A stretch of DNA of 64,000 nt from a virus. Taxonomy: Duplodnaviria > Heunggongvirae > Uroviricota > Caudoviricetes. The stretch's first letter is position 1, and each line of letters opens with the position of its first letter. Below, in pieces: positions 4,449 to 27,986 of the stretch. The notes under the pieces are model-generated. The model was not told where the DNA came from and did not search any database. It saw only the letters and a program-made list of their open reading frames with translations. Made by a program: the position numbers and the translations under genes. The DNA is taken from the IMG/VR virus record IMGVR_UViG_3300021255_003500, positions 9,962 through 73,961 of that record; one strand, written 5' to 3'.

Positions 4449-7400
4449 GTGCTTCGATACAAACGAAACCTGGCGTTGGATATCTTTGACTATGCTGGAC
4501 ATAAGATCTGCAATCTGTATGACAACAGCGGAGATATCAATGGACAGGCTACCAACGTGGTGGTAACCACAGAGCGCAACGGATGGAAGGAGCTTTCCTT
4601 CACTATTCCATCCGTTTGCGAAAACGCTGACGGCAGTCAGGAGGACAACTTCCGGGTCGATCTGCTGAAAGCGGACTATCGGATCCGGTTGATAGACGAC
4701 GATGGAACGGACTGGTATATCATTTCTGAACCTAAGATCGTTCACAATAAGGCGATGAAGAGTGTCAGCGTGACAGCCGGACATATCGCCCAGCTGCTGA
4801 AGACGAAGAACCTTGGACTGGAATTCTAGGACGAGGAAGGGAACAACGTTGGAACAGCGGAGGAGCTGCTGACAACCATTCTGGATGGTACAGGCTGGGA
4901 GCCAGGAGAAGTTGCTACCTTTAAGGAAAAGATGAGCGGCGCCGTGAAGTACAGAAGTCTGAAAGCTTCCGCAAAGACAGGCGCGTTCAAGCTGATCTCC
5001 AACATGTGTGATCTGTTTGAGGCTAAGCCGATTTATCACGGTGATACAAAGAAGATCGACATCGTTCCCATGAACCCGTTCTCCGAACCAGAAGACGGTT
5101 CTCTGCCGGATATTGCAGACGAAAAAAAGTCCAAGGTGATTGAGCTTCGTTATGGCAACAATGTCAAGAACGTTACACGAACGCTGAACACAGAGAACCT
5201 GGTGACGAAGTTGTATGCCTACGGTGCTTTCGGTGATAAAACCAGCGGTTACTGCGGCATCGACGAATGGGTGCACAATGAGTACATCCTGCAGCTGAAC
5301 AATGACGTTCCGGCGGGCAAGGAGTGCGTGCTGGAGATCACCAACGAAGCAACAGGGATCACTTGGAAGCGTTACTTCACGCCGTATGAAGACTTAACAG
5401 TCGGTACGCAAGTGATCTGGTCCGTACTGGATCCTGCGTCCATGAGCTATGTCTGGAACGAAGACGCCGAGCACGCCTATCCGGTTTATCAGAAGCGTAC
5501 ACAGGATGAGCCAGCAGCAACAACATTGGTGGAGACGCAGTCTGTTACCAACTATTTCTCTTTCCTGATGGACTTCGACTATTATCGGGAAGTAGATCTG
5601 CTGACAGACGAGATGATCCAGACGATCGCAGAATACCAGCGTAAGATGCCGGAGCTGCAGCGGATCGTATCAGAGAAAGCAACCCTGTTTGCAGAGAAAC
5701 TGACAGAGCTCAGCGAGATCGTTGGCAGCGGCAACTTCTGCAAGCTGGCGATCAGTGACTATGCCAACAATACAGGCTATCTTCGTCTGACCCTGGATCG
5801 ATCAGAAGACCCGAAGGGTGCGATCTACCGAACGGACTACACGGTCCGGGAGAACAAGCAGTTCAAGTGGCGTGAAGCTGAGAAGCTGAAGGAGAACGGA
5901 GACCCGCTGAATGACGCGGCGTCGATCGTCTATATCATTCATGATCGGAATCCTCTGTCTTACGATACTGCTTATATCAAGGAGATCGAATGGGAGGAAG
6001 GCGATGAGAAGCGCGAGAAGCCGGTTGCTTTTACCCTTTGGCTGCCCTTCACGGAAGAATACCTGGAAAACTTCTCAGATAACCATGTATTCCTGTTTGC
6101 CAGTCACACGGTGAACGGACGGCTTGGCGCTTATCAGACAGCGGACGAGGCTGCGAAAGCCGCGCTGGAATCCACGACCAAAGTGGTTACGGAAAGACAT
6201 CCGGTGTACTTCTCCCCTACCACACCAGACATTGCCATCGAGAATATCCAGGGTTATGCCTGGTGGTGGAAGTACAACAACACGGGTGCGCCATCGGAAA
6301 TGTATTTTTGCTATCGCTACAGCGACTCTTCCGAGTATGCCAGCAGAATCACAGAAGGCGACACCCGGTGGTACCGCATGCATTTCGACAGTACTTTTCC
6401 TATTGCCGCAGCCAAGGACTATTTCTACAACTGGAAAGAGGCGGTCCTTTATCGACTGAACACCGACAACGAGTGGGTCAAGTATAATGAGCGTTCTTCC
6501 GCAGAAGACCGTATGGTTGCCAAGCTTGGATCGATCTTCCGAAGCTGTCAGACGAGAGACGCGCTGTATAACGGCGAGTATCAGTACTATACCGTGGAGC
6601 TGGACACAGATCTGCCAGTTGGCAACTATGCCTTTGCTGACAACTATGGGAATTATTACGCCTTCACCACCAAGACGCCGCTGACTGCCAATGACAAGCT
6701 GGTTTACGATACGACAGAGCGCTGGGTGATCGCAACAGCAAAGTCAAACGATGTCGAGGATATGACCAAGGAAGAGATCATCGACATGACGCTGGAAGCA
6801 AAGGACTATCGTTTTGACAATGTCTATATGCATGCAGCCAATGTGGTTGGCAGAACAGTCTGGGAACCGGGCGCACTGGAGATCATCGAAGGCGCTACCG
6901 TAGAGACAGAGGACTCTGAAAAATACCGTTCTGGTTTCTGCCCCGTATATTCGAACATCGAATATCAGATCAGCGGACTGGCCGGAAACATTGATGTTTA
7001 TACGTACACGATCAACCGCACTTTCCAGGATCATCGGGTGATCAACGCTGTGAATGGCACGATGACAACACCGAACAACTGCCGGTTCATGCGGTTTGTT
7101 TATAACCCGACAGCCAACAATTATACGCCCAGCGATATCCAGAAGTATCTGAACGTAGCAGCGCTGAGCAAGGATAATGCTTTCGTGGTGGACGAGAAGG
7201 AATACCTGCTTTTGCCGCAGCCAAGTGAAGGCAGTGGAGAACTGAAAGGCATCATCCCTTTGACAGGGAAATTCCTGGCAACCGCAGACGAAGCGTTCCT
7301 ATCCGCCAAAGTCATCATGGAACAGGCACAGGCGGATGTGAAAGAGCTGGAAAGCAGACTGGTAAACGATCTCGGAGAGATGTATCGGGAAGGCTACTGG

Positions 7401-8615
7401 CAGAAGAGCGACTATGTGGACGGCGACGAAGAGAAGCTGTACAACGACGCGCTGGAGAACCTGGAAGAGATCGCATTCCCGGAAGCCAAATATCAGGTAG
7501 GCTATCTGGATCTGTATGGCACAGAGCAGCCAGACTTTGGCGTTACAGAGCTGACCAGTGATGTTTTGTGGCCGGATATCAGCATTGACTACGCGGTGCA
7601 TCTGATCGACGACGAGATCGGGATCAGCAAATGGGCGTTCATCGATAAGCTGTCCAAGTGTTATGACCAGCCGTGGAAGACCACGCTGACGCTGAATACA
7701 AAGCTCAGTACCATCGGGCAGCACAGCTTTACGGATGTCATGACCCATATCGCAGAGGTAGCCAATCAGGTGAAAGGCAAGATCGAGGTCTACAACCGGG
7801 CAGAAGTGGTCAATTCTACCGGTCAGGTAGCAGCGGAGATCCTGGAAGGAACCATCGACGCCAACCGGCTGATGATCACCGGAGGCTCCTCTACCTGGTA
7901 TACGGACGACCGGGGCAATCTGATGTTCCAGAGCGCGGATGGCAAGTCTGCCATGGCGATCACAGGCAACGGCTTTGCCATAGCTAACAGCAAGGATGAA
8001 TGGGGCGACTGGGTATGGCGCACCTTCGGTACAGGAGACGGCTTCTCGGCAGACATGATCGTAACAGGTTTCATGTAGGCAGAGCGGATCCTTGCCGGAA
8101 CGATCACTGCCAGCAAGCTGGCTTCCGATGTTGGCGCCAGTCTGGACGTAAGCTCCAATGAGTCTCTGAACCTGGTGGTTGGCGATGCAGTATCCAGGAT
8201 CCGGATGACCGATGAAGAGATCGTCAGCACGATCATGGAAAGTTCACGGTATCAGGCAGACAAGGAAGCTCTGATCGGCAGTGCTGTGCAGCAGACAACC
8301 TCTAACCTGGCGGTTCGTTTCAACACGATCGAGGCGCAGCAGGCGGTTGTCGATGGCAAGATGGAAACAATCAACAATGTGGAGTCCTGGTTCAAGTTCA
8401 ATAACGATGGGACTTTTGACATCGGAAAGTCCGACAGTCCGTTCAGCGTCAAGCTTGGCACCGAAAAGCTTCAGTTCATGAAAGACGACAAAGAGATGGC
8501 GTACTTCCAGAACAATACGCTGTATAACACAGCAGCGGAAATTTCCAATAGGCTGAAGCTTGGCAACTTTACCATAACGGTAACAGACGACGGCGATACG
8601 TTGGTTTGGAATTAA
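4449..8615 (+). CDS. Tail-associated/tail-tip protein (Tal-like), 1388 aa. It reads through in-frame TAG codons at 4827-4829 and 8076-8078.
   Basis: Track ORFs 4449..4829, 4932..8078 and 8175..8615 are all in frame 0. The gaps 4830-4931 and 8079-8174 have no other stops, and the sequence across the TAGs is protein-like (...GFM(TAG)AERILAGTITASKLASDVGASLDV...). The N-terminus resembles the prophage tail endopeptidase N-domain. True stop is TAA at 8613. Confidence 0.75.
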
Positions 8616-19240: not shown

Positions 19241-19336
19241 ATGATCACGAAGACAAAACGAATCATTGCTTTTATTCTGGCTGTCGCTTATTCCGCAATG
19301 CTGATCGGAACTGCAGTTCTTGGGATGCTTCGTTGA
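19241..19336 (+). CDS. 31-aa hydrophobic membrane peptide (MITKTKRIIAFILAVAYSAMLIGTAVLGMLR).
   Basis: AAGGAG RBS 8 nt upstream. One predicted TM helix. Sits directly before the endolysin. Confidence 0.35.
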   Translation: MITKTKRIIAFILAVAYSAMLIGTAVLGMLR

Positions 19337-19343
19337 GCCGGTG

Positions 19344-20138
19344 ATGACAATGGCTGTATCAGCAAAAGAATTCTCCATGCAGGGAGATAAGTATCTTGGT
19401 CGGCCTTACAGTGAGATGGATTGCCAAGCTTTCGTGGAACAAATGATGTCGGATGTCGGCATCAAAACGGATCTGAAAGGATCCAACGCCTGGTTCAGAA
19501 AGGTAACGTGGGTTGGAACACCCGAGGAATGCAAAGCCAAGTTTGGATAGATCCCGGTGGGGGCTCTCCTCTTTATCTGGAAAGATGACGGAGGAGAGAT
19601 CCCCCGGGGGTATAAGGACGGACTTGGCAATGCTTCGCATATCGGTGTCTACATTGCTCGCGAAGAAGGTGCGATCCATTCCAGCAGCAGCAAGCACAAG
19701 GTATGCTACAGTAAGTTCTCTGGCAAGAGTATTAAAGGTGGCTGGAACAGAGTTGGCTTATGGGATCGCTTCGATTACGGGCAGCACATCAACCAAATAC
19801 TGAACCAGGACTCAAATCAAAATGAAAGGGATGAGAGTCCTATGTTATATACTGGTATTATCACATCTTCCAACGGAAAGGGAGCCAACCTGCGATCAAA
19901 GAAATCCACTAGCTCCGATCTGATTGTCAGGATGGGAGAAGGCGACAGCGTTGAAGTGCTCGAAGACAACGGCAGCTGGCTGAAGGTTACATATGGAACC
20001 TATACCGGCTACGTGCTGAAGAGCCTGGTTGCTCAGGCGGACTACGAGAAGGAGACCACGCCTGTTACCGTAACTCTGCCGTACAATATTGCCCTTGAAC
20101 TGAGAGACGCCCTCATCAATGCGATGGGGGTGGGTTAA
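19344..20138 (+). CDS. Endolysin with an NlpC/P60 (CHAP-like) cysteine peptidase domain and a C-terminal SH3b domain. In-frame TAG at 19548-19550.
   Basis: Track ORFs 19320..19550 and 19557..20138 share frame 0 and are separated only by TAG. The catalytic Cys (SEMDCQAF) lies upstream of the TAG and the His (NASHIGVY) downstream. The SH3b-like C-terminus reads GANLRS...WLKVTYGTYTGYVL. Confidence 0.7.
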
Positions 20139-20139
20139 A

Positions 20140-20496
20140 GTGGAGAACTTAACGCTTGACAACCTCAAAGTAGCTGTCCTGGTGATCCTTGGGGTCATGG
20201 CGCTGCTGGTGTCGGTGGAGAAAGGTATCGAAGCTTTTCATAAGCTTTTCAGAAAGCGCTCTGAGGATCTGCAGCAGTAGCAGAACCAACGGATCAGCAC
20301 ACTGGAAACCAGAGTGGCTTCCTGTGAAAGCAGGCTGACCCGTGGCGACGAGAAGTTTGCTTCCATTGAGGAAGACAACAAGCAGATGCTTGTAGCGCTA
20401 AACGCAATGCTGATGCATATGATCAGCGGAAACGATCACGCAAAGCTGACCAGCGTCAAGCAGCAGCTCGATCAGTATCTGGCATCCAGAAGGTGA
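20140..20496 (+). CDS. Lysis-cassette membrane protein with an N-terminal TM helix and a coiled-coil tail. In-frame TAG at 20278-20280.
   Basis: Frame 1 is open from GTG 20140 through the TAG to TGA 20494. Contains LKVAVLVILGVMALLVSV then EDLQQ(TAG)QNQRISTLETRV.... Confidence 0.5.
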
Positions 20497-20500
20497 TCTG

Positions 20501-20788
20501 ATGGCAATTATCAAGGCGACACGTCCAGCAAGACTGGCAGCTACTTATGTGCAGTTTTCCAAACGGATCGCCACAGCAATTGCTGTCTTCTGGTGCGTAT
20601 ATCGGATCCTGAACATCGTTATCATCTTCTTCAGGCCAGAGCTTAGCACGGCCTTATATCAGATGCTGTCCGGCGTGGACGATGTGATGATGGTATCCAT
20701 TGGTTTCTACACCGGCAACAGCGTTGTTGAGAAGGGTATCACTGGTTACTTCGGAGCGAAGAGCGCCGCAGCAGACAGTGATGGCTAA
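20501..20788 (+). CDS. Holin-like protein with two TM segments.
   Basis: TM1 IATAIAVFWCVYRILNIVIIFF and TM2 VMMVSIGFYTG. Last late gene before the terminator. Confidence 0.6.
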   Translation: MAIIKATRPARLAATYVQFSKRIATAIAVFWCVYRILNIVIIFFRPELSTALYQMLSGVDDVMMVSIGFYTGNSVVEKGITGYFGAKSAAADSDG

Positions 20789-20904: not shown

Positions 20905-20962
20905 CGAGCATATTGTGGGTCTGCAAAACCTTCATTCTCCGGTTCAAATCCGGATGGCACCT
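20905..20962 (+). other. Probable attachment-site core: the 3' fragment of a tRNA gene (T-arm TCCGG-TTCAAAT-CCGGA plus acceptor 3' strand TGGCACC) with no matching 5' half.
   Basis: GGTTCAAATCC T-loop and acceptor 3' strand are present. The complementary GGTGCCA is absent upstream. Lies immediately adjacent to the integrase. Confidence 0.45.
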
Positions 20963-21061
20963 CGGAATCCTTTAGAAATCAGGCTTTGGATGGTCGACCG
21001 GGGCCTGATTTTCTTTTGTTTTTCTGAGGAGACCTTTGCGCTTTTTTGAAAAAACCTTTAT

Positions 21062-22039
21062 TCAAGCATTGATAGCTTTATACATATCTTCGAAGGCATC
21101 ACCATAAAGATTGATGTAAGTATTGTAGGTAACTGTCGTGCTGGAATGACCGAGGATCTTGGACAGGATCTTGACATCCATGCCCTTATAGTAGCAGTTG
21201 GTGGCGAAGGTGTGGCGCAGAGCGTGCTCACCGTAGTAAGGAACCATAGCCAGAGAGCAGAGCTTCTTGGTTTGGTAGACCAGCGCTGCGTAGGACAGGC
21301 GTTCTCCCCTGCTTTGGAAGACCCATTCGGTGTCAGAGAGGGTTCTGGCCTTCATCAGCAGCTCAATGGCATGCTTGGTCAATGGTACGATACGCACACT
21401 GGATAAGGATTTTGGAGATTCCTGGATGTAGGCGTTGGTTTTGTGCATCAGGTTGACAACGGTAGCGCCAATCCGGATGCGGCAGCGGCTGACATCTACG
21501 TCCTTCCAGCGAAGAGCCAGTGCTTCTCCTACCCGAAGTCCTGTTTCGATAATGAATCCGATGCAGATAGCTCCGATACCGCCATCAGCATCCAGGACGG
21601 AAGCCAGACGGGCCTGTTCCTCTTTGGTATAAGCCTGGATATCCTTCTTCTGCTTCTTGATGTTGGTAGGCGCAGGGAGATTTACGCCTACGGTAGGATC
21701 ACTTTGGATGATCCGCATGGCAGCTGCCTGCTTGAGCGGCGCTGTCAGCAGACGATACTGCTTCTGGATGGTGGTCAGGCTGTATCCGTCGTCTGCGAGA
21801 CGATTGAGGTACAGCTGCACATCGAAGAATGTAATCTCTCCCACGGGTTTCTGGGAAATCGGGTACTTTTCCAGGGCCTTGAAGGATGTAACCAGCCTCT
21901 GGTAGGAAGAGGGCTTGATGGCTGTGCGTTTGAATGTCGTCAGCCAGACATCGATATACTGCGAGAGAGACATTGATGCTTGCAACATGGTATATTTTCC
22001 TTTCTCTCGCTCGAATCCTATGCTGTTGTCAAGGTTCAC
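21062..22039 (-). CDS. int: Tyrosine site-specific integrase.
   Basis: C-terminal R..HxxR..Y catalytic motifs (HALRHTFATNCYYKGMDVKILSKILGHSSTTVTYNTY). Convergent with the late operon. Confidence 0.9.
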   Translation of the reverse strand: MNLDNSIGFEREKGKYTMLQASMSLSQYIDVWLTTFKRTAIKPSSYQRLVTSFKALEKYPISQKPVGEITFFDVQLYLNRLADDGYSLTTIQKQYRLLTAPLKQAAAMRIIQSDPTVGVNLPAPTNIKKQKKDIQAYTKEEQARLASVLDADGGIGAICIGFIIETGLRVGEALALRWKDVDVSRCRIRIGATVVNLMHKTNAYIQESPKSLSSVRIVPLTKHAIELLMKARTLSDTEWVFQSRGERLSYAALVYQTKKLCSLAMVPYYGEHALRHTFATNCYYKGMDVKILSKILGHSSTTVTYNTYINLYGDAFEDMYKAINA

Positions 22040-22091
22040 AGACTTACCTCCTGTATTTTAACCTTTATTCAAGAAAAAAACAAGGGCTGTC

Positions 22092-22120
22092 TTGATTAAC
22101 AGCCAAGTAAACGATATACT
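22092..22120 (+). promoter_or_regulatory. Candidate sigma70-like promoter (TTGATT-N17-TATACT) for small peptide gene copy 1.
   Basis: Hexamers and spacing read from the sequence. Not experimentally supported. Confidence 0.3.
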
Positions 22121-22318
22121 GCTTGAGTGGACGAAGGCAGCACGGAGGGAGGTGATACGCATGAAGAAAATGAAACTCAACCATGCGATCCAGGTGGCCA
22201 AGACTTAGCTCTCGGTTGCCGCCGATCTTATTACCATTTATTTATTCATCAGAATATTAATTGGTTAATTAGATGACAAGATTCCAATGAAATGTTTTGC
22301 CTTCGTCCACTCAAGCAG
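22119..22318. repeat. Perfect 21-bp inverted repeat pair (22119-22139 and 22298-22318) bracketing the 35-aa TAG-containing peptide gene.
   Basis: ctgcttgagtggacgaaggca versus its exact reverse complement tgccttcgtccactcaagcag. Confidence 0.7.
22161..22268 (+). CDS. Small peptide, 35 codons (MKKMKLNHAIQVAKT-TAG-LSVAADLITIYLFIRILIG), with an internal TAG at 22206-22208. Paralog of 23740..23847.
   Basis: Strong RBS GGAGGGAGGTGA. Protein-level conservation with copy 2 on both sides of the TAG. Opposite strand to the flanking genes. Confidence 0.55.
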
Positions 22319-22323
22319 CAACC

Positions 22324-22359
22324 ATCAAGGGCGATCACAGAAAATTCCATGATCGCCCT
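22324..22359. terminator. 11-bp stem hairpin (CAAGGGCGATC...GATCGCCCTTG) between the small plus-strand gene and the minus-strand gene 22377..22856.
   Basis: Inverted repeat read from the sequence. Flanking T/A runs are weak. Confidence 0.35.
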
Positions 22360-22376
22360 TGATTGAAAAGCTGGTT

Positions 22377-22856
22377 TTATTCAGATAATTCTGCTCCTGG
22401 CAGATCTTCCAGTGTCCAAGCCCAGGTTATTCCATAGTCCCAAAACGAATAGATGTTGTCATCATGGCCATGTTTGCCACGAAGATAATAAATACAATCA
22501 TGGTTGATTCCGAGATCGTTATTCCCGTCTTTCTTTTCGATGTATATCACTTTCTCCTCATCTGTTGATCCACCATGTATTGTACCATAAAACCCTTTCG
22601 TTGCTGGGTTGAGAAACCTGGACGCAATACTGACTTGAATCTTTTGCCGCATGGAAGTCAGCTGATTTAATTGGATTTGCAGCTCTTCCAACTTTTCGCT
22701 TTTTGCTGCAAGCTCATCTCGAAGATCATTCTTCTCTGCGGTTATGACATCAATCAATTGCAATGCGTGTTTTGCCGTAGTAGCAGCGCTTTCATTGCCA
22801 TGCGTAGCTTGCCAATGCAATTCGCGAAGAACATGGTTGTCTTCGATATAAGCCAC
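22377..22856 (-). CDS. Hypothetical protein with coiled-coil content.
   Basis: ORF with TAA stop. Start codon is uncertain (GTG). Confidence 0.45.
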   Translation of the reverse strand: MAYIEDNHVLRELHWQATHGNESAATTAKHALQLIDVITAEKNDLRDELAAKSEKLEELQIQLNQLTSMRQKIQVSIASRFLNPATKGFYGTIHGGSTDEEKVIYIEKKDGNNDLGINHDCIYYLRGKHGHDDNIYSFWDYGITWAWTLEDLPGAELSE

Positions 22857-22879
22857 TCCTTTCTGTCTCTCGACTTTTA

Positions 22880-23041
22880 TCAGTGTTTCTTCATAAAGTA
22901 ATAATACTCATCTTTTTGAGCAGAGTCTTGGTCGATCGCATAGTTTCTCTGGATTCGACGTACAGCTTCTTTGGCAGTTTCAAACACACCGCAGAATTCT
23001 TCGCGTCCTGAACTTAAATGCCTGCTGTAAACGTAATACAT
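22880..23041 (-). CDS. Hypothetical small protein (53 aa).
   Basis: ATG preceded by GGAGGA. Not in the ORF track because it is under 60 aa. Confidence 0.3.
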   Translation of the reverse strand: MYYVYSRHLSSGREEFCGVFETAKEAVRRIQRNYAIDQDSAQKDEYYYFMKKH

Positions 23042-23042
23042 G

Positions 23043-23249
23043 TTAATCCTCCGTCTCGTTTAGACAATTGTTAATATACTGACGCAGATACATGATCGTA
23101 TCCAGGGAATCTTGCAGCAGTGGAGCAAGAGATTGGCATGTGCCATACTGGTCGTCGCTGTAAGGGCAGTGATCACACGCATTGCTTGTTGGATCTTTCT
23201 GCAGCTGAATGCATTTCTTTAGCCCTGAAGTAAGCCAGAGTAATTCCAT
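23043..23249 (-). CDS. Hypothetical Cys-containing small protein.
   Basis: ORF with TAA stop. Confidence 0.4.
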   Translation of the reverse strand: MELLWLTSGLKKCIQLQKDPTSNACDHCPYSDDQYGTCQSLAPLLQDSLDTIMYLRQYINNCLNETED

Positions 23250-23255
23250 GATGCG

Positions 23256-23627
23256 TTACTCCTTTTCTTCTTCGGTTTCTTCAGCAAGCTCTTGGATAGG
23301 TTCTTCGGTTTCCTTGAAGGGGTCGTTCTCCTTCTCACCGGCGGAGCGCATTTCCAGATCCAGTTCTTTCCACGCGGCATGAATGGCGTTTATCACGTCG
23401 TCCGTATTCACATTGAAGCCTTTGTTGCGCATGACTTCGATCGCGTAAGCCAGCTTATCGTCACCATGATAGCGACCATAAACAGCCTCTGCAGCAGAGA
23501 CGGCGATCAGGGCGGCTTCGTACAGGTTGTTGGTCTTCAGCCACGGTATCACATGCTTCAGACCAATGATGCCAAGCACAGAGAAAAGCAGACTGACAAC
23601 CAGGATCACAATTTGAGTATAGTCCAT
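23256..23627 (-). CDS. LL-H-type holin-like membrane protein.
   Basis: ATG at 23627 with RBS GGAGGTG. N-terminal TM helix (IVILVVSLLFSVLGIIG) and a charged C-terminus. Confidence 0.45.
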   Translation of the reverse strand: MDYTQIVILVVSLLFSVLGIIGLKHVIPWLKTNNLYEAALIAVSAAEAVYGRYHGDDKLAYAIEVMRNKGFNVNTDDVINAIHAAWKELDLEMRSAGEKENDPFKETEEPIQELAEETEEEKE

Positions 23628-23650
23628 AGCGGACACCTCCAGTAATAGTT

Positions 23651-23670
23651 TATCACACAGATGTGTGTGA
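23651..23670. promoter_or_regulatory. 20-bp perfect palindrome ATCACACAGATGTGTGTGAT. Operator-like site overlapping a candidate TTGCAA-N17-TATGCT promoter for peptide gene copy 2.
   Basis: Palindrome and hexamers read from the sequence. Confidence 0.35.
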
Positions 23671-23704
23671 TTGCAAAGGAATACGTTCTGTGATATGCTG
23701 CAAA

Positions 23705-23889
23705 AGCGGACGCAGGCGTTACGAAAGGAAGTGATACGCATGAAGAAAACAAAATTCAGTCATGCGATCAGGGTGGCGAAGACTTAGCTCTCTGTCACCG
23801 CCGATCTGATAACCATCTACATGTTCCTTCGTATGTTGTTTGGTTAACTTATCAGACTAAATTCCCTTGAGTTCTTGTCTGCGTCCGCT
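23705..23889. repeat. 11-bp inverted repeat pair (23705-23715 and 23879-23889) bracketing peptide gene copy 2.
   Basis: agcggacgcag versus ctgcgtccgct. Confidence 0.5.
23740..23847 (+). CDS. Small peptide, 35 codons (MKKTKFSHAIRVAKT-TAG-LSVTADLITIYMFLRMLFG), with an internal TAG at 23785-23787.
   Basis: RBS AAAGGAAGTGA. Paralog of 22161..22268. Followed by a strong terminator. Confidence 0.55.
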
Positions 23890-23906
23890 CAAGCATTTGT
23901 TTTAAG

Positions 23907-23948
23907 ATGGAGGCCGGGCCCTTTGGTGGGCCCGTCCTCTTTTTTCAT
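23907..23948 (+). terminator. Rho-independent terminator (GGAGGCCGGGCCC-TTTGGT-GGGCCCGTCCTC followed by TTTTTT).
   Basis: GC-rich stem followed by a T-run. Confidence 0.55.
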
Positions 23949-23952
23949 CGTG

Positions 23953-24333
23953 TTACATCAGGTTGGATCTCTGAGGAGGAATAGCAGCAGAATCTTCTGC
24001 CACAACGTTACGATCATCCGGGAAATCCTTGATGCAGGTTGCGACAGCCAGCTGGTTGGTATGGGTGATCGTCGCGCATGCCCACCCATCATTCAGCATG
24101 GCTGCCAGCTCCGTGTCAAACACTTTGAAATCGGCAGGTGTCTTTGTCTGCCGGCAGATCGTATGTACTTTGAACATAAAATCTCCTTTGCGCTGGCTTA
24201 ATTGTAGGTTTGCCTGAACGCGCCTTCGGCGTCCAGGAAATTCTGGCGCAGAATATAAGCCGTGCCAGCGTCTGACACAGCTTTTACCGTGGTGAAGCAG
24301 CGCCAATGCGAACCGGTGACAGGCGCTGACCAA
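23953..24333 (-). CDS. Hypothetical protein. Start is uncertain and may be the internal Met near 24178.
   Basis: ORF with TAA stop. Confidence 0.35.
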   Translation of the reverse strand: MVSACHRFALALLHHGKSCVRRWHGLYSAPEFPGRRRRVQANLQLSQRKGDFMFKVHTICRQTKTPADFKVFDTELAAMLNDGWACATITHTNQLAVATCIKDFPDDRNVVAEDSAAIPPQRSNLM

Positions 24334-24488
24334 TAGGGATCAAACTCGGCATGAAACCACACCTTTTCAACGGTAAAGTAGCCGATCGTCGGTGAGAAAT
24401 ACCGGTTGCCCAGGAAGGAATGCTTCCAGACCCTGCATTTGTAATGCATGATCTGTGGATTCGTTTCGTTCAATCTTCTGGGGATCAT
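24198..24488 (-). CDS. Hypothetical protein.
   Basis: ORF with TAA stop. Confidence 0.4.
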   Translation of the reverse strand: MIPRRLNETNPQIMHYKCRVWKHSFLGNRYFSPTIGYFTVEKVWFHAEFDPYWSAPVTGSHWRCFTTVKAVSDAGTAYILRQNFLDAEGAFRQTYN

Positions 24489-24715
24489 AGTTTCTCCTTG
24501 TAGACAGGCTCCACATCATCATAGAAGACGATATCCCAGCCGTTCTGTCCGGATAGGGCATCGTTGATGCAGCGCTCGATGAATTGCTTGTTCACGGTCT
24601 TCAGCAGCGTGTTTCCGTTTCGCAATTCGATGAGCATCTTTCCTGTTCTGGGATTGAGCACTGCCTTTTCCTTGTCTGTTTTCCGTGTCAGCATCATGTA
24701 GCGCAATGGTATCAC
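24485..24715 (-). CDS. Hypothetical protein.
   Basis: ORF with TGA stop overlapping the next start. Confidence 0.4.
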   Translation of the reverse strand: MIPLRYMMLTRKTDKEKAVLNPRTGKMLIELRNGNTLLKTVNKQFIERCINDALSGQNGWDIVFYDDVEPVYKEKL

Positions 24716-24827
24716 CTGTTTCCTGTTTATTTAACTGGTTTTCAACATGAAAAACCTGGGTTAGGGATGAAAGATGAATAAGTCTTCGTCCTGAAAACGG
24801 TAACGAAAAATGCATCGTGTTTTCTGT

Positions 24828-25163
24828 TTATTTATCAGTGGCCAGATAACCCGAATGATTGATCAAGTTTGCCCAGTATTTCGCCTGCGCCTCGGTGAAG
24901 TCCATCAGGTCATCGTCGCTCAGGTTCACCATCAGGAAAGTGCCAACCAGTACGTCATAGGGGGAACCATCTGCACACAGCATGACCTTGTTAGCCGGAA
25001 GACCCATCAGCTTGCCTTCCTCGTTACAAACAATGCCTACCGTATCCTTGAAGGGATAGATCATCTGAATATAACCGCCTACTTCTTTCTGCAGTGCGTC
25101 CAGAGAATTCTCAATATCAATTACTTCAGCCATCTGACCGGGCTGTACACGAACAACTCTCAT
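24828..25163 (-). CDS. Hypothetical protein.
   Basis: ORF with TAA stop. Confidence 0.45.
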   Translation of the reverse strand: MRVVRVQPGQMAEVIDIENSLDALQKEVGGYIQMIYPFKDTVGIVCNEEGKLMGLPANKVMLCADGSPYDVLVGTFLMVNLSDDDLMDFTEAQAKYWANLINHSGYLATDK

Positions 25164-25333: not shown

Positions 25334-26085
25334 TCACGACACTGCTTGTACATCGATACTATCAATGTAAAGCAAGAGTTCTTTTTTACGATAAGGCAGT
25401 CCGTATTTTTTTAACCATTTGGTGACAGCATGTCCAGTAACATCATACCGTCTTGCGATTTCAGATAAGTTGCATGACGTATCTTCTAACAGTTTAATCA
25501 ACGCATCCTTTGAAGGCATAAGCACACGTTTGGGTATTTGTGCCATCATGTCATTCGCGTATTGCCAACGGTATCCACCAGCAGTTTTGGTAATACCTCT
25601 AACGCAACTGTTGATGCAACTTACATGAACGTTGGATTGCTTAGACGCTTCTGCCAGAGAATTATATGTGGCCATCAATTCTCCAGACAAACTATATTGC
25701 TGCACTGCTCTTCCTTTTCTGGGCTTACGTAAATTATTTTCATAAGCGTGTATTAAATTGTCCTAATACGTTGCCCACTCTAAATTATCAACACAATTAT
25801 TCGTCTTGTTTCCATCTTTATGATTGATCTCGTCTTTCTGATCTTCTTGATTTAAGAAAGCTTCTGCTACACACCTGTGAACGTAGACTTTCTTAAATGA
25901 ACCGTCTTTTCTTGCAGAAAAGCATAAGTATCCGCTGTTATCTACTTGCGGATGCATTATACTCTCACGAACGGTCATCGTTTGTTTGCCGCATTTGACA
26001 ACACGCTTTACGCTGCGTATGTTTCCTTGGTTGCTTACATCATAGTAACCTTCATATCCAACTACAGGTCTCCATTCTTCGATAG
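25334..26085 (-). CDS. HNH homing endonuclease with NUMOD4 and HNH domains and a C-terminal HTH DNA-binding domain. In-frame TAG at 25763-25765.
   Basis: Track ORFs 25763..26263 and 25334..25705 share a frame. The former ends in TAG. Readthrough gives ...NLEWATY(TAG)DNLIHAYEN..., which matches the conserved HNH_3 NLEW.T..EN..HA motif. The N-terminal 50 aa of the track ORF overlap tRNA genes, so the start is probably TTG near 26085. Confidence 0.6.
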
Positions 26086-26110
26086 TAACCAACTCCTTTG
26101 CAAAGATAAG

Positions 26111-26194
26111 CGCGGTGTGAAGGATTTGAACCTTCGGAGCCAACGGCTCAACGGTTTTCAAGACCGCCGCAATCAACCGCTCTGCCAACACCGC
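26111..26194 (-). tRNA. tRNA-Ser (anticodon UGA). Class II tRNA with a long variable arm and G73.
   Basis: GCGGTGT / TTGGCAGAGCGGTTGATTGC / GCGGT-CTTGAAA-ACCGT / variable arm GAGCCGTTGGCTC / GGTTCAAATCC. Confidence 0.8.
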
Positions 26195-26200
26195 AAAGGG

Positions 26201-26285
26201 CGTGGAGTAGAGGATTTGAACCTCTGGAGGCTTCCACCTCGACGGTTTTAGAGACCGCTGCAATAAACCGCTCTGCCAACTCCAC
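26201..26285 (-). tRNA. Amber suppressor tRNA (anticodon CUA). It is a tandem paralog of tRNA-Ser(UGA), with a long variable arm and discriminator G73.
   Basis: GTGGAGT / TTGGCAGAGCGGTTTATTGC / GCGGT-CTCTAAA-ACCGT / variable arm GAGGTGGAAGCCTC / AGAGGTTCAAATCCTCT / ACTCCAC-G. The loop CT-CTA-AA gives anticodon CUA. Confidence 0.8.
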
Positions 26286-26539
26286 GTAAAAAACAGCCCG
26301 AATGCTTTCGCTTCACCACAAAACTACTCGCATATTTACGTAGGGGTTCGGGCTTGTCGACCCCTGCCGGTTTGTCAGTTCCGGCAACTGGTACCTTTGT
26401 CGCATGGTGGTGCATCATGCGGTAGGCGTACAGTTCCTGCGGGGAACATCCCCGCTTCAGATGGACCCGGACCTTTCGGTCAGCCCAGACATATGCCCCG
26501 AGCGCTACTTTCCTGATCAACGGATAGTTTTACAGGGCA

Positions 26540-26626
26540 TCAGTCGTCCTTTCCAATTCGAAAGACGCAGCACAGACAGAAGCCTGCGCATACGCCCAGC
26601 AGAAAAGTAAAAAGAATAGCCATCAT
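26540..26626 (-). CDS. 28-aa hydrophobic Cys-rich peptide (MMAILFTFLLGVCAGFCLCCVFRIGKDD), translationally coupled to the NifS stop (ATGATG overlapping TGA).
   Basis: Start codons overlap the NifS stop, with RBS GGAGAAA. Confidence 0.3.
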   Translation of the reverse strand: MMAILFTFLLGVCAGFCLCCVFRIGKDD

Positions 26627-27750
26627 CGTTTCTCCTGTAAGGTTTCCCGAATTTCGTTGGCTGCCTCCACCAGAATGTCGGCAGCTTTCATAATGTCTGA
26701 CAAAGAAGTGTCTTCTGTCAGTGTCAGACGGATGGAAGACAGAGCTTCCTCATCTGTCAGACCGATCGCTTTCAGTACGCGGCTGGGCTGCAGATCGCCA
26801 GAAGTACAGGCAGAGCCGGTAGAGATATACAGCTGCTTCATTTCCGCCCGGATGATCAGTACTTCAGCCGGGACATCCGGAATGCAAATGTTGCAGTTGT
26901 TCGGCAGCCGTTTGTTGCTCGCAATGGTTCCGTTTACAAAGGCTCCGGGTATTCTCTGCAGCAACTGTTTGATCAGAATGTCTCTGTTCTGCTCCATCCG
27001 ATGGATCAGCTCCGGATATGCTGTCACTTCTTTCGCTGCGTCCGCCATTTCCACAAAGCCTTCGACATTCTCTGTTCCGGCACGCAGTCCAAGCTCCTGA
27101 GAGCCGCCATGAATCAGCGGATCCAGCTTTGTTCCTTCGCGAACATATAAGGCGCCGGTCCCCTTGGGTCCATGGAACTTATGCCCAGAGATGGACAGCA
27201 GATCGACGCCCAGATCATTGACATCGATGGGGATCTGGGTGAATGCCTGCACCGCGTCGGTGTGCAGCAGGATATTCCGATCGCCGATTACCTGTTTAAT
27301 CTGTTTGATGGGCTGAATGCTGCCGATCTCGTTGTTCGCCAGCATGATGCTGATCAGGATCGTCTGATCCGTGATCGCAGACGCTACCTGTTCCGGGAGC
27401 ACAAAACCCTCATCCGTAACGGGCAGGTAAGTCACACGAAAGCCATGCTTTTCCAGCCACTTGCAGCTGTTGTAGACAGCAGAGTGCTCGATCTGCGTGG
27501 TGATGATGTGGTTGCCGCGATCCTGGTTGGCAAAAGCAGCGCCTTTAATCGCCAGGTTGTCGCTCTCGGAGCCTCCGGAGGTCAGAATGATCTCCTTCGG
27601 CTGAGCATGCAGCAGGTTCGCAATGGTTTCCCTGGCATCGTTCAGTGCGTACGCTGCCCTCCGTCCGAGTAAATAAGGAGCTGACGGGTTTCCGACCAGC
27701 TCGCTTTGGGCATACCGTCTTGTGGTAGCCGCGTTGTCCAGATAGATCAT
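26623..27750 (-). CDS. NifS/IscS-like cysteine desulfurase (class V aminotransferase).
   Basis: Motifs SGGSESDNLAIKGAA and ISGHKFHGPKGTGALYV. Likely start is MIYLDNAATT with ATGA overlap to the upstream gene. Confidence 0.8.
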   Translation of the reverse strand: MIYLDNAATTRRYAQSELVGNPSAPYLLGRRAAYALNDARETIANLLHAQPKEIILTSGGSESDNLAIKGAAFANQDRGNHIITTQIEHSAVYNSCKWLEKHGFRVTYLPVTDEGFVLPEQVASAITDQTILISIMLANNEIGSIQPIKQIKQVIGDRNILLHTDAVQAFTQIPIDVNDLGVDLLSISGHKFHGPKGTGALYVREGTKLDPLIHGGSQELGLRAGTENVEGFVEMADAAKEVTAYPELIHRMEQNRDILIKQLLQRIPGAFVNGTIASNKRLPNNCNICIPDVPAEVLIIRAEMKQLYISTGSACTSGDLQPSRVLKAIGLTDEEALSSIRLTLTEDTSLSDIMKAADILVEAANEIRETLQEKR

Positions 27751-27986
27751 CACTTGCCTCCCTGACATTCCCGGATATGAAGCCACTCATCCAGGTACTG
27801 GTTGAACTCTTCGATCGTCTTGTTGTACTTTGCAGCAAGGCATTTTTCACAGGTTGGGCGTTCCTTCAGCGCATTGCAGCAGCGCTCATCCCACTTGTTC
27901 AGTCGCTTTTTGCAGATGTGGCAGTGCCATTCGGTCCACTGCTGCATCTTCGTCTCTCGCATGTTTGCCATCAGATCACCGCTCAC
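27750..27986 (-). CDS. Small Cys-rich (Zn-finger-like) protein.
   Basis: CHIC...CC...CEKC pattern. Confidence 0.45.
   Translation of the reverse strand: MSGDLMANMRETKMQQWTEWHCHICKKRLNKWDERCCNALKERPTCEKCLAAKYNKTIEEFNQYLDEWLHIRECQGGK

What the first reader, a model, noticed from the sequence alone, without database searches (positions are those of the whole stretch)
22092..23948. Two paralogous TAG-interrupted 35-aa hydrophobic peptide genes on the opposite strand, each bracketed by inverted repeats and followed by a terminator
Copy 1 (22161..22268) and copy 2 (23740..23847) encode MKKxKxxHAIxVAKT-TAG-LSVxADLITIYxFxRxLxG. They are conserved at the protein level on both sides of the TAG. Each has a strong RBS and its own terminator, and each is anti-oriented to the surrounding minus-strand genes. 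Each is flanked by an inverted repeat pair (21 bp perfect, and 11 bp) whose sequences differ between copies while the pairing is kept. This architecture recalls type I toxin or hok-like fold-back loci. In a standard-code cell only the 15-aa basic N-terminal peptide is made. The hydrophobic tail is made only when tRNA(CUA) is present. They could be suppressor-dependent membrane toxins, timers or superinfection-exclusion factors.
Basis: partly seen in the sequence, partly recalled or inferred. Interest (0 to 1): 0.7.

Follow-up and report, generated by a model that had tools for sequence, protein, structure and literature searches.

The report
Amber-gated toxin-like phage peptide genes
A gut phage that reads the stop codon TAG as an amino acid carries two old copies of a tiny gene for a 35-residue membrane peptide, built like the toxin genes of RNA-controlled toxin-antitoxin systems, and the full peptide can be made only when the phage's own TAG-reading tRNA is present.

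Summary
Two about 205-nt cassettes (22113-22318 and 23692-23895, + strand) each hold a -10 box, an SD, and an ORF of 15 codons, TAG and 19 codons. Each also has a 5'/3' inverted repeat. Synonymous sites after the TAG are saturated (pS 0.68) while pN is 0.15, so the hydrophobic tail is translated. The phage encodes a tRNA(CUA) that is a paralogue of its tRNA-Ser, and its endolysin and an HNH endonuclease also carry in-frame TAG. The inverted repeat starts at the predicted +1 and forms a 13-14 bp 5'-3' closing helix. That helix is kept by 2 compensatory and 2 G-U changes. The AUG sits in an invariant hairpin. This is the mRNA design of type I toxins (hok, aapA). However, no antisense RNA is conserved, toxicity is untested, and in-silico 3' trimming does not open the start site. 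No homologue exists outside this phage lineage, and a related phage lacks both cassettes exactly. Best reading: moron-like, toxin-like membrane peptide genes doubly gated by mRNA folding and amber suppression. This is a new variant of a known kind, supported by only two paralogues plus one near-identical variant.

The parts
22092..22120 (+). Copy 1 sigma-70-like promoter (TTGATT-17-TATACT). The predicted +1 is at 22126/22127.
   Evidence: The -10 box lies inside the duplicated unit. The -35 lies in resident sequence shared with L049.
22119..22139 (+). Copy 1 5' arm of the inverted repeat. The part predicted to be transcribed (22127-22139) forms the 5' strand of the closing helix.
   Evidence: (I1).
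22148..22152 (+). Copy 1 Shine-Dalgarno GGAGG, 8 nt before the ATG. It is predicted to pair with AUUCC at 22281-22285.
   Evidence: SD 0.32 unpaired in the full transcript.
22154..22190 (+). Copy 1 start-codon hairpin GAUACGCAUG / CAUGCGAUC. Both strands are identical in copy 2.
   Evidence: The AUG is at most 0.01 unpaired in predicted transcripts of 104 nt or more.
22161..22268 (+). Copy 1 ORF of 35 codons with TAG at 22206-22208. It encodes MKKMKLNHAIQVAKT-(Ser?)-LSVAADLITIYLFIRILIG.
22193..22223 (+). Copy 1 hairpin that presents the TAG in a 6-nt loop (CUUAGC). It includes the invariant 14-nt block AAGACTTAGCTCTC.
22281..22285 (+). Copy 1 candidate anti-SD ATTCC, 3' of the stop codon and conserved in copy 2.
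22298..22318 (+). Copy 1 3' arm of the inverted repeat (the 3' strand of the closing helix).
   Evidence: (I1).
22324..22363 (+). Copy 1 downstream hairpin (19-nt arms, 89% complementary) with no U tract. It could be a 3' end or stabiliser, or a weak two-way terminator.
   Evidence: I3. One search does not list it as a terminator.
22251..22279 (-). Promoter-like site on the minus strand inside copy 1 (TTGTCA-17-TATTCT). It is a candidate antisense RNA start, but there is no counterpart in copy 2.
22075..22104 (-). Minus-strand intrinsic terminator just beyond copy 1. It sits in the same position as the terminator that follows the holin-like gene in L049. Minus-strand transcripts must cross copy 1 in antisense to reach it.
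   Evidence: The antisense read-through is inference.
23671..23699 (+). Copy 2 sigma-70-like promoter (TTGCAA-17-TATGCT with an upstream TG). The predicted +1 is at 23705/23706.
23705..23718 (+). Copy 2 5' arm (AGCGGACGCAGGCG).
   Evidence: (I16).
23726..23731 (+). Copy 2 Shine-Dalgarno AGGAAG (AGGAGG in variant L050).
23740..23847 (+). Copy 2 ORF of 35 codons with TAG at 23785-23787. It encodes MKKTKFSHAIRVAKT-(Ser?)-LSVTADLITIYMFLRMLFG.
23861..23865 (+). Copy 2 candidate anti-SD ATTCC.
23876..23889 (+). Copy 2 3' arm (TGTCTGCGTCCGCT). It forms 14 bp with the 5' arm, two of them G-U.
23910..23945 (+). Copy 2 intrinsic terminator (GC-rich stem followed by TTTTTT).
26198..26286 (-). Phage amber-suppressor tRNA(CUA), a paralogue of the adjacent tRNA-Ser(UGA) at 26110-26194. 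It is needed to read the TAG in both peptides.

Best explanation
These are two ancient paralogous, self-contained 'moron'-type cassettes of about 205 nt, running from the -10 box to the 3' arm. Each encodes a 35-residue peptide with a Lys-rich N-terminus and a hydrophobic C-terminal helix, so it is probably tail-anchored in the membrane. The in-frame TAG is read as a sense codon, most likely Ser, by the phage's own tRNA(CUA). A cell without that tRNA would therefore make only a 15-residue basic fragment. The mRNA is built like a type I toxin mRNA. Its first nucleotides pair with a segment 3' of the ORF (a 13-14 bp closing helix), the AUG is locked in an invariant hairpin, and the SD is partly paired to a conserved AUUCC downstream of the stop codon. 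I infer a membrane-active, toxin- or holin-like peptide whose synthesis is held back at two levels: mRNA folding and dependence on amber suppression. It would then appear only once the phage has switched the cell to its own code, that is, during lytic growth or induction, alongside the TAG-interrupted endolysin. Shown here: the ORFs, translation past the TAG, the suppressor tRNA, selection on the helix and hairpins, and the presence/absence polymorphism. Inferred: the transcript ends, Ser identity of the TAG, membrane activity or toxicity, timing of expression, and any antisense control.
For: Coding past the TAG: differences in the C-terminal half fall 5/0/11 by codon position, with pS 0.68 against pN 0.15. 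An alternative frame gives the reverse, pS 0.09 against pN 0.35. Suppressor: tRNA(CUA) at 26198-26286 shares its D-arm, anticodon stem and long variable arm with the adjacent tRNA-Ser(UGA). TAG is sense elsewhere in the phage: the NlpC/P60-SH3 endolysin domain spans a TAG, so does an HNH endonuclease, and stop-codon use agrees. RNA design: promoters sit at homologous positions in both copies, placing +1 at the first base of the helix. Predicted transcripts fold with z = -6.0 and -6.6. In the closing helix 13 of 13 pairs are kept, 2 by compensatory and 2 by G-U changes. The 19-nt block GTGATACGCATGAAGAAAA, CATGCGATC, AAGACTTAGCTCTC and ATTCC are invariant although neutral sites are saturated. 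The AUG is at most 0.01 unpaired in predicted transcripts of 104 nt or more. Cassette nature: the related phage L049 lacks both copies, with homology breaking at window 22086 and 23687. The near-identical variant L050 keeps the TAG and the tail. Literature: an untranslatable primary transcript with a 5'-3' long-distance interaction is described as a hallmark of type I toxin loci (PMC6733600). Type I toxins of 34-59 aa are common and multi-copy in Clostridia prophages (PMC6563280, PMC7699646). Recoded TM proteins in lysis cassettes have been proposed to control lysis (bioRxiv 10.1101/2021.08.26.457843).
Against: There are no transcript data, so the promoters, +1 and 3' ends are consensus predictions only. 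Only two independent sequences exist, so covariation cannot reach significance; 71 of 500 shuffles do as well. The minus strand folds almost as well (z = -3.6 against -4.0 and -5.1). In a local context the start region is not extreme compared with 36 other phage genes: copy 1 AUG is 0.27-0.31 unpaired against a background median of 0.49. Removing the 3' arm in silico does not open the SD or AUG, so hok-style activation is not reproduced. No antisense promoter is conserved. The charge polarity (basic N-terminus, hydrophobic C-terminus) is the reverse of the Clostridia type I toxins (PMC7699646). There is no homologue anywhere else and no family match.
Confidence: 0.5

Rival explanations
1. A complete type I toxin-antitoxin module. 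The peptide would be a toxin neutralised by a cis-antisense RNA. That RNA could be a dedicated sRNA (copy 1: promoter 22279..22251, terminator 22104..22075, about 170 nt). Alternatively it could be the 3' read-through of the convergent minus-strand operon. The module would stabilise the prophage by post-segregational killing.
For: The toxin-mRNA hallmarks are present. Copy 1 has a minus-strand promoter-like site and a minus-strand terminator that bracket its 5' half. The terminator sits in the same position as the one that ends the operon in L049, so operon transcripts must cross copy 1 in antisense. Prophage-borne, multi-copy type I TA modules are the norm in Clostridia (PMC7699646).
Against: Copy 2 has no antisense promoter-like site even at a relaxed threshold and no minus-strand terminator. 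There is no Rfam antitoxin match. Post-segregational killing would also need the suppressor tRNA to remain in cured cells. Toxicity is untested.
Confidence: 0.2
2. A harmless small membrane protein moron, for example a superinfection-exclusion factor or a partner/regulator of the neighbouring holin-like protein. In this reading the 5'-3' helix simply protects the mRNA ends from RNases, and the TAG is just this phage's ordinary codon usage.
For: The cassettes are independent transcription units in the lysogeny-proximal region and are absent from a related phage, which is typical of morons. Copy 2 is divergent from a holin-like gene (phrog_6918, E = 6.9e-13). TAG is sense genome-wide. The local start-site occlusion is not extreme.
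Against: The invariant AUG hairpin and the SD/anti-SD conservation at saturated neutral divergence point to translational repression rather than stability alone. TAG is rare (at most 32 of 19,595 codons in a greedy ORF set that includes spurious ORFs), yet it is kept at the same site in both old paralogues.
Confidence: 0.22
3. A miniature mobile element (MITE-like). The inverted repeats would be terminal repeats recognised by a transposase, and the ORF would be a passenger or incidental.
For: The duplicated unit ends within a few bases of the repeat arms, and the unit is a presence/absence indel relative to L049.
Against: The arms differ between copies while staying complementary within each copy, including G-U pairs that work only in + strand RNA. 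In copy 2 the outer 8 nt, which lie upstream of the predicted +1, have lost complementarity. There are no solo arms or further copies in 64 kb plus about 10 kb of flank. No target-site duplication is visible. The copies are anciently diverged (pS 0.68), with purifying selection on the peptide.
Confidence: 0.05
4. A structured non-coding RNA, or a gene for the 15-residue peptide only. In this reading the region after the TAG is not translated.
For: The fold is highly stable. The N-terminal half shows no clear codon periodicity (2/3/3 differences).
Against: There is strong third-position bias and low pN/pS after the TAG in this frame only. There is no in-frame start codon after the TAG shared by both copies. 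A suppressor tRNA is present and other genes need it.
Confidence: 0.03

Closest known systems
hok/Sok (E. coli plasmid R1 and chromosomes) and aapA/IsoA (Helicobacter pylori) type I toxin-antitoxin loci
   Same: Each is a small membrane peptide ORF on a short, stable mRNA whose extreme 5' end pairs with a 3' segment (long-distance interaction, 'fold-back'). The SD is masked by a distant anti-SD and there are local hairpins at the start site. The loci are often present in several diverged copies (PMC6733600).
   Different: There is no sequence homology. No conserved antisense RNA gene was found. In-silico 3' truncation does not activate the start site. The host lineage is Clostridia and the element is a phage. 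The ORF contains an in-frame amber codon that needs a phage suppressor tRNA, which has no counterpart in the type I TA papers I searched or read here.
Prophage-borne type I TA modules of Clostridioides difficile (CD0904.1/RCd13, CD0956.3/RCd14, CD0977.1/RCd11) and of Bacillus subtilis prophages (bsrG/SR4, yonT/SR6, txpA/RatA)
   Same: They encode 34-59 aa hydrophobic peptides with a strong RBS. They lie in prophages of Firmicutes, are duplicated and diverged, and are unannotated because of their size. A role in prophage maintenance has been proposed (PMC7699646, PMC6563280).
   Different: Those toxins have a hydrophobic N-terminus and a Lys-rich C-terminal tail; here the polarity is reversed. 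Their antisense RNAs were mapped experimentally; none is evident here. They have no recoded stop codon.
Recoded (in-frame TAG/TGA) lysis-cassette transmembrane proteins of alternatively coded gut phages (Borges et al., bioRxiv 10.1101/2021.08.26.457843)
   Same: Each is a membrane protein whose translation needs the phage's suppressor tRNA, in a phage whose lysis genes are also recoded and whose integrase is free of in-frame stops. The proposed logic is to prevent premature expression of membrane-damaging products.
   Different: Those are ordinary-sized proteins inside the lysis operon and the TAG is read as Gln. Here the genes are 35-codon stand-alone cassettes on the opposite strand, next to the integrase. 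They have toxin-type mRNA folding and a single conserved TAG that is probably read as Ser.
Phage morons (independent promoter-gene-terminator units inserted between phage genes; described from my own knowledge, not checked in a paper here)
   Same: Each has its own promoter and terminator or hairpin, is oriented against the flanking operon, is absent from a close relative, and lies near the lysogeny module.
   Different: 'Moron' describes only the genomic architecture and implies no function. It does not account for the mRNA closing helix or the amber gate.

Membership tests
Type I toxin-antitoxin system (general) | Toxin is a small (<60 aa) hydrophobic peptide with a potential transmembrane segment. 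| tested here: met
   The peptide has 35 residues. My hand-computed Kyte-Doolittle means for the 19-residue tails are about 1.95 (copy 1) and about 1.46 (copy 2). However, the charged end is N-terminal, not C-terminal as is usual (PMC6563280).
Type I toxin-antitoxin system (general) | An antisense RNA antitoxin (cis or trans) base-pairs with the toxin mRNA. | tested here: inconclusive
   A minus-strand promoter-like site and terminator exist for copy 1 only. Copy 2 has none. There is no trans-complementary site in the window and no Rfam antitoxin family match. Operon read-through antisense remains possible but is inferred.
Type I toxin-antitoxin system (general) | Ectopic expression of the peptide arrests growth or kills, and is neutralised by the RNA. 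| not testable with these tools
   This needs expression of the TAG>TCG allele with and without the antisense region.
Type I toxin-antitoxin system (general) | The primary transcript is untranslatable because the SD or start codon is sequestered. | tested here: inconclusive
   The AUG is at most 0.01 unpaired in predicted transcripts of 104 nt or more, but the SD is only partly paired (0.15-0.41 unpaired in transcripts of 142 nt or more). Local occlusion is at about the 3rd percentile (copy 2) and 25th percentile (copy 1) of 36 phage genes. All of this is prediction only.
hok/Sok and aapA/IsoA subclass (long-distance-interaction mRNAs) | 5'-end to 3'-end helix closing the mRNA, supported by covariation. 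| tested here: met
   There is a 13-14 bp helix starting at the predicted +1. All 13 aligned pairs are kept, 2 by compensatory and 2 by G-U changes. Statistical power is limited to two sequences.
hok/Sok and aapA/IsoA subclass (long-distance-interaction mRNAs) | Activation by 3' truncation that frees the SD. | tested here: not met
   In-silico truncations leave the SD and AUG as occluded as in the full-length transcript. No experimental test was done.
hok/Sok and aapA/IsoA subclass (long-distance-interaction mRNAs) | Sequence membership (Hok/Gef Pfam, AapA family, Sok/IsoA RNAs). | tested here: not met
   There are no hits in Pfam, NCBIfam, PHROGs or PADLOC even at E <= 10. Rfam gives only low-score chance-level matches to unrelated families, none a toxin or antitoxin RNA.
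Stop-codon-recoded phage gene (TAG as sense) | The phage encodes a tRNA(CUA), essential late genes carry in-frame TAG, and TAG is avoided as a terminator. | tested here: met
   
Stop-codon-recoded phage gene (TAG as sense) | The region downstream of the TAG is under protein-level selection in the same frame. | tested here: met
   See: pS 0.68, pN 0.15, and codon-position differences of 5/0/11.
Holin | Membership of a known holin family, or a position in the lysis cassette next to the endolysin. | tested here: not met
   There is no PHROG or Pfam holin hit for the peptides. They are not in the endolysin cassette (19320-20788). The neighbour at 23256-23627(-) is the holin-like gene.
MITE / IS-derived element | Terminal inverted repeats with target-site duplication and multiple near-identical copies. 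| tested here: not met
   The arms covary within each copy. No target duplication is visible. There are only two copies and they are saturated at neutral sites. There are no solo arms.

The most novel reading that the evidence does not exclude
The cassettes are amber-suppressor sensors. The prophage would keep a stable, folded toxin mRNA in the lysogen, where the host release factor stops translation at TAG after 15 harmless residues. The lethal 35-residue membrane peptide would be completed only when a tRNA(CUA) appears. That could happen at the prophage's own induction, where it would act as a lysis timer or accelerator. It could also happen when a related TAG-recoded phage superinfects, giving abortive infection or superinfection exclusion keyed to the invader's genetic code. 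This would be a toxin gated by genetic-code state instead of, or in addition to, an antitoxin.
Probability: 0.15. Interest if true: 0.85.

Novelty: new variant of a known kind. Interest (0 to 1): 0.58.

Why it matters
Stop-codon recoding in phages has been proposed, from genome statistics only, to act as a timing switch that keeps lytic functions silent until the phage installs its own code. A 35-codon, self-contained, probably membrane-active gene with one conserved TAG would be a minimal and easily manipulated test of that idea. One codon change (TAG>TCG) and one tRNA gene should switch a phenotype on and off. For toxin-antitoxin biology it would add a control principle not described for type I toxins in the papers I read here: dependence on a suppressor tRNA on top of mRNA folding. 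It would also add a peptide family invisible to standard gene callers. Finally, it shows that small ORFs in recoded phages are systematically missed, because the standard-code product (15 aa) is below every calling threshold.

Tried and rejected
**Family and RNA libraries.** Pfam, NCBIfam, PHROGs and PADLOC gave no hit for either peptide at E <= 10. Rfam at E <= 10 over 21500-24500 gave only chance-level miRNA/snoRNA matches.

**Homologue hunt, all negative.**
- blastn of 21000-25000 against GenBank phages.
- tblastn of the peptides against phages and plasmids.
- Three exact or degenerate DNA patterns and one peptide-pattern scan of IMG/VR.
- A 14-residue degenerate pattern with the TAG position left free, against 185k species genomes and against JGI metagenomes.
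- A looser 9-residue pattern against metagenomes. It gave 38 hits, all chance by context.
- A padded peptide profile against 5.8 billion proteins.

**Context route.** The 159-aa neighbour is an ORFan. Integrase relatives (50-56% identity, Clostridia MAGs from sheep and deer) have no cassette by nhmmer, peptide HMM or inverted-repeat scan. Of the holin-like relatives examined, only L050 carries a cassette.

**Other checks.**
- Covariance model R1 found nothing new in 228 kb of related loci.
- No third copy was found in the window or in about 10 kb beyond its left end.
- I tried to read the TAG's amino acid from homologues of the endolysin, the 125-aa protein and the HNH endonuclease. No alignment spanned the site.
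- I rejected a minus-strand ORF as the product. The antisense ORFs are 39 aa in copy 1 and, by my reading, 14 aa in copy 2, and they agree only where the + strand is constrained (and my own reading of the sequence).
- I rejected an attenuator or leader-peptide role, because no + strand gene follows either cassette.
- A YUNR motif in the TAG loop was noted, but it is too common to count as evidence.


Full report
**What is there.** Copy 1 (22161..22268, +) reads MKKMKLNHAIQVAKT-TAG-LSVAADLITIYLFIRILIG-TAA. Copy 2 (23740..23847, +) reads MKKTKFSHAIRVAKT-TAG-LSVTADLITIYMFLRMLFG-TAA. The repeated unit runs from a -10 box to the end of a 3' repeat arm (22113-22318 and 23692-23895). It is 77% identical over the 156 nt that align without gaps. 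nhmmer finds only these two copies in the window, and none in about 10 kb beyond its left end. Each ORF is bracketed by an inverted repeat. Copy 1 has 21 perfect bp (22119-22139 / 22298-22318). Copy 2 has 11 perfect bp, which I extend to 14 bp (23705-23718 / 23876-23889) with two G-U pairs. The 21-mer never recurs, in the window or in shuffles. All flanking genes are on the minus strand:
- integrase, 21062-22039;
- an ORFan of 159 aa, 22377-22856;
- two small ORFs;
- a holin-like gene, 23256-23627 (phrog_6918, E = 6.9e-13).

- Only copy 2 has a canonical terminator (23915-23934 plus a T run). Copy 1 is followed by a strong hairpin without a U tract (22324-22363).
- The SD is GGAGG in copy 1 and AGGAAG in copy 2.
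- TAG interruption is a property of the whole phage, not of these two genes.

**The genetic code of the element.**
- ARAGORN finds a tRNA with anticodon CUA at 26198-26286(-), immediately next to tRNA-Ser(UGA).
- The two tRNAs share the D-arm, the anticodon stem and a long variable arm.
- From established knowledge, SerRS recognises the long variable arm and acceptor stem and not the anticodon. TAG is therefore most likely read as Ser. This is an inference, and an attempt to confirm it from homologues failed.
- Only 8 of 80 greedy standard-code ORFs end in TAG, and most of those continue in frame.
- The NlpC/P60-SH3 endolysin (19320-20138) has its catalytic domain split by a TAG. Relatives encode it as a single 274-281 aa ORF.
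- A NUMOD4/HNH endonuclease is split in the same way.
- The source is a 107-kb contig (ENA ERZ12302814). Its integrase relatives sit in Clostridia MAGs from sheep and deer gut.

**Is the hydrophobic tail translated?** Yes, as far as sequence can show.
- In the 19 codons after the TAG the two copies differ at 16 positions, distributed 5/0/11 over codon positions 1/2/3.
- The proportion of synonymous differences is 0.68, which is saturated. The non-synonymous proportion is 0.15, and all replacements are conservative.
- Read in another frame, the same DNA gives the opposite pattern (0.09 against 0.35).
- No in-frame start codon shared by both copies follows the TAG, so read-through of TAG is the only consistent route.
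- The N-terminal half is less protein-like (2/3/3), because much of it is locked into RNA structure.
- Since neutral sites are saturated, every invariant non-coding or wobble position in the unit is under selection.

**RNA design.**
- Sigma-70-like promoters lie at homologous positions: TTGATT-17-TATACT at 22092-22120 and TTGCAA-17-TATGCT with an upstream TG at 23671-23699.
- They put +1 at 22126/7 and 23705/6. This is exactly where the complementarity begins in copy 2.
- The outer 8 nt of the copy 2 5' arm would not be transcribed, and they have lost complementarity.
- Transcripts from +1 to the terminator fold with z = -6.0 and -6.6 into the same architecture. It has four elements:
  - a 13-14 bp helix joining the first nucleotides to a segment 30-50 nt past the stop codon;
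  - a hairpin GAUACGCAUG/CAUGCGAUC that buries the AUG and is identical in both copies;
  - a hairpin that presents the TAG in a 6-nt loop inside an invariant 14-nt block;
  - pairing of the SD core to a conserved AUUCC downstream of the ORF.
- In the closing helix all 13 aligned pairs are maintained. Four of them vary: two by double compensatory change (U-A to C-G, A-U to C-G) and two by G-C/A-U to G-U.
- G-U pairs here and in the TAG hairpin would be A-C mismatches in the antisense RNA, so they point to the + strand.

**Limits of the RNA evidence.**
- With two sequences the shuffle control cannot go below about 1 in 8; 71 of 500 shuffles do as well.
- The minus strand folds nearly as well (z about -3.6 against -4.0 and -5.1).
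- Local start-site occlusion is unusual for copy 2 but only moderate for copy 1, when compared with 36 other genes of the phage.
- The AUG is at most 1% unpaired in every predicted transcript of 104 nt or more.
- Deleting the 3' arm in silico does not open the SD or AUG. The hok/aapA activation step of 3' trimming is therefore not reproduced, and what opens the start hairpin is unexplained.

**Antisense control.**
- Copy 1 contains a minus-strand promoter-like site (22279..22251) and is followed on the minus strand by an intrinsic terminator (22104..22085 plus a T run). Together these would give an antisense RNA of about 170 nt over the SD, AUG and TAG hairpin.
- Copy 2 has neither, even at a relaxed threshold.
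- No trans-complementary site exists in the window.
- The minus-strand terminator sits in the same position as the two-way terminator that directly follows the holin-like gene in the related phage L049.
- I therefore infer that, in this phage, transcripts of the minus-strand operon cross copy 1 in antisense before terminating, and that transcripts entering the holin-like gene cross copy 2. This has not been shown.

**Distribution.**
- Every search outside the lineage was negative (see the tried-and-rejected section).
- Inside the lineage, L050 (Logan SRR28623932, 97.6% identical) carries copy 2 with K3R, an SD improved to AGGAGG, changes in the promoter spacer, and the TAG and tail intact.
- L049 (Logan SRR27107213; holin-like protein 75% identical, integrase region 73% nt identity) lacks both cassettes.
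- Homology with L049 stops at window 22086 and 23687, a few bases before each -10 box. In L049 the holin-like gene is followed directly by the terminator and the integrase.
- The cassettes are therefore discrete accessory insertions ('morons') that borrow a local -35. They are not transposon-like: there is no target duplication, no solo arms, and the arms covary within each copy.

**Interpretation.** The best-supported reading is a pair of toxin-like small membrane peptide genes. Their product can be completed only in a cell that contains the phage's amber suppressor. Their mRNA is additionally closed by a type I toxin-style 5'-3' helix and a start-codon hairpin (PMC6733600 gives the hallmark). 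Prophage-borne, duplicated, unannotated 34-59 aa type I toxins are well documented in Clostridia (PMC7699646, PMC6563280). However, those have the opposite charge polarity and mapped antisense RNAs. Borges et al. (bioRxiv 10.1101/2021.08.26.457843) proposed that recoding keeps lysis-related membrane proteins silent until late infection. Here the endolysin carries an in-frame TAG while the integrase contains none, which fits that scheme.

I put the sub-claims at these probabilities:

| Sub-claim | Probability |
|---|---|
| The 35-mer is translated through the TAG | about 0.85 |
| The closing helix is functional in the + strand RNA | about 0.7 |
| The peptide is membrane-damaging | about 0.45 |
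| It is a bona fide type I TA with an RNA antitoxin | about 0.2-0.25 |

The main rival is a harmless membrane moron with a stabilised mRNA. The MITE, non-coding-RNA and 15-mer-only readings are disfavoured by the codon-position pattern and the covariation.

**Novelty and score.** Small toxin-like peptides in prophages and recoded lysis genes are each known. What is new is the combination: a stand-alone 35-codon gene with type I toxin mRNA architecture, plus a conserved amber codon that makes the hydrophobic half conditional on a phage tRNA. I found no description of it in the papers I searched and read here. The evidence base is thin, with one phage lineage, two paralogues and no expression data, so I rate it a new variant of a known kind with interest 0.58. 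The most novel reading not excluded is a toxin that senses genetic-code state, either as a lysis timer or as exclusion of superinfecting recoded phages. It would be highly interesting, and I give it about 0.15.

Noticed in passing
window 26198-26286(-) and 26110-26194(-): The amber-suppressor tRNA(CUA) is a close paralogue of the adjacent tRNA-Ser(UGA), with the same long variable arm. TAG is therefore probably read as Ser here. The recoded phages in the papers I read use TAG as Gln (PMC9523058, PMC10607447).
   Followed up: partly
window 26441-26487(-): An Rfam DUF3800-XI RNA motif (RF02975, 60.6 bits against a gathering score of 37.8) lies about 150 nt 5' of the suppressor tRNA on the same strand. 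It could bear on how suppressor expression is controlled.
   Followed up: no
window 19320-20138(+), 20119-20496(+), 25334-26110(-): Other genes are interrupted by a single in-frame TAG. They are the NlpC/P60-SH3 endolysin (TAG at 19548), a TM plus coiled-coil protein just downstream (TAG at 20278) and a NUMOD4/HNH homing endonuclease (TAG at 25765). The integrase has none.
   Followed up: partly
window 20912-20963; L051 5506-5557: A 52-nt stretch is 90% identical between this phage and an otherwise distant prophage. In both it lies next to the 3' end of the integrase gene. It is a candidate attP core or host tRNA fragment.
   Followed up: no
window 23653-23672; L049 about 4958-4977: A perfect 8-bp palindrome (ATCACACA-N4-TGTGTGAT) lies upstream of the holin-like gene and overlaps the -35 of copy 2. 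It is conserved, with a different loop, in the relative that lacks the cassette. It is a candidate operator or RNA hairpin.
   Followed up: partly
window 26623-27786(-) and the adjacent minus-strand genes (L001 gene table): There is a cluster of auxiliary-metabolism-like genes next to seven tRNA genes: a cysteine desulfurase (Aminotran_5), a radical-SAM/Fer4_12 protein, a metallophosphatase and a Band_7 protein.
   Followed up: no
window 4449-8615(+): Three consecutive tail-region ORFs (YOMG_N 126 aa, Prophage_tail 1048 aa, and a 136-146 aa ORF) are joined in one frame through TAG codons at 4827 and 8076, with no other stop between them. It is unclear whether these are read-through fusions or true TAG stops.
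   Followed up: no
window 22377-22856(-): The 159-aa gene between the two cassettes is a strict ORFan. Its only match among 5.8 billion protein clusters is itself. Together with the 53- and 68-aa genes it is absent from the related phage L049.
   Followed up: yes
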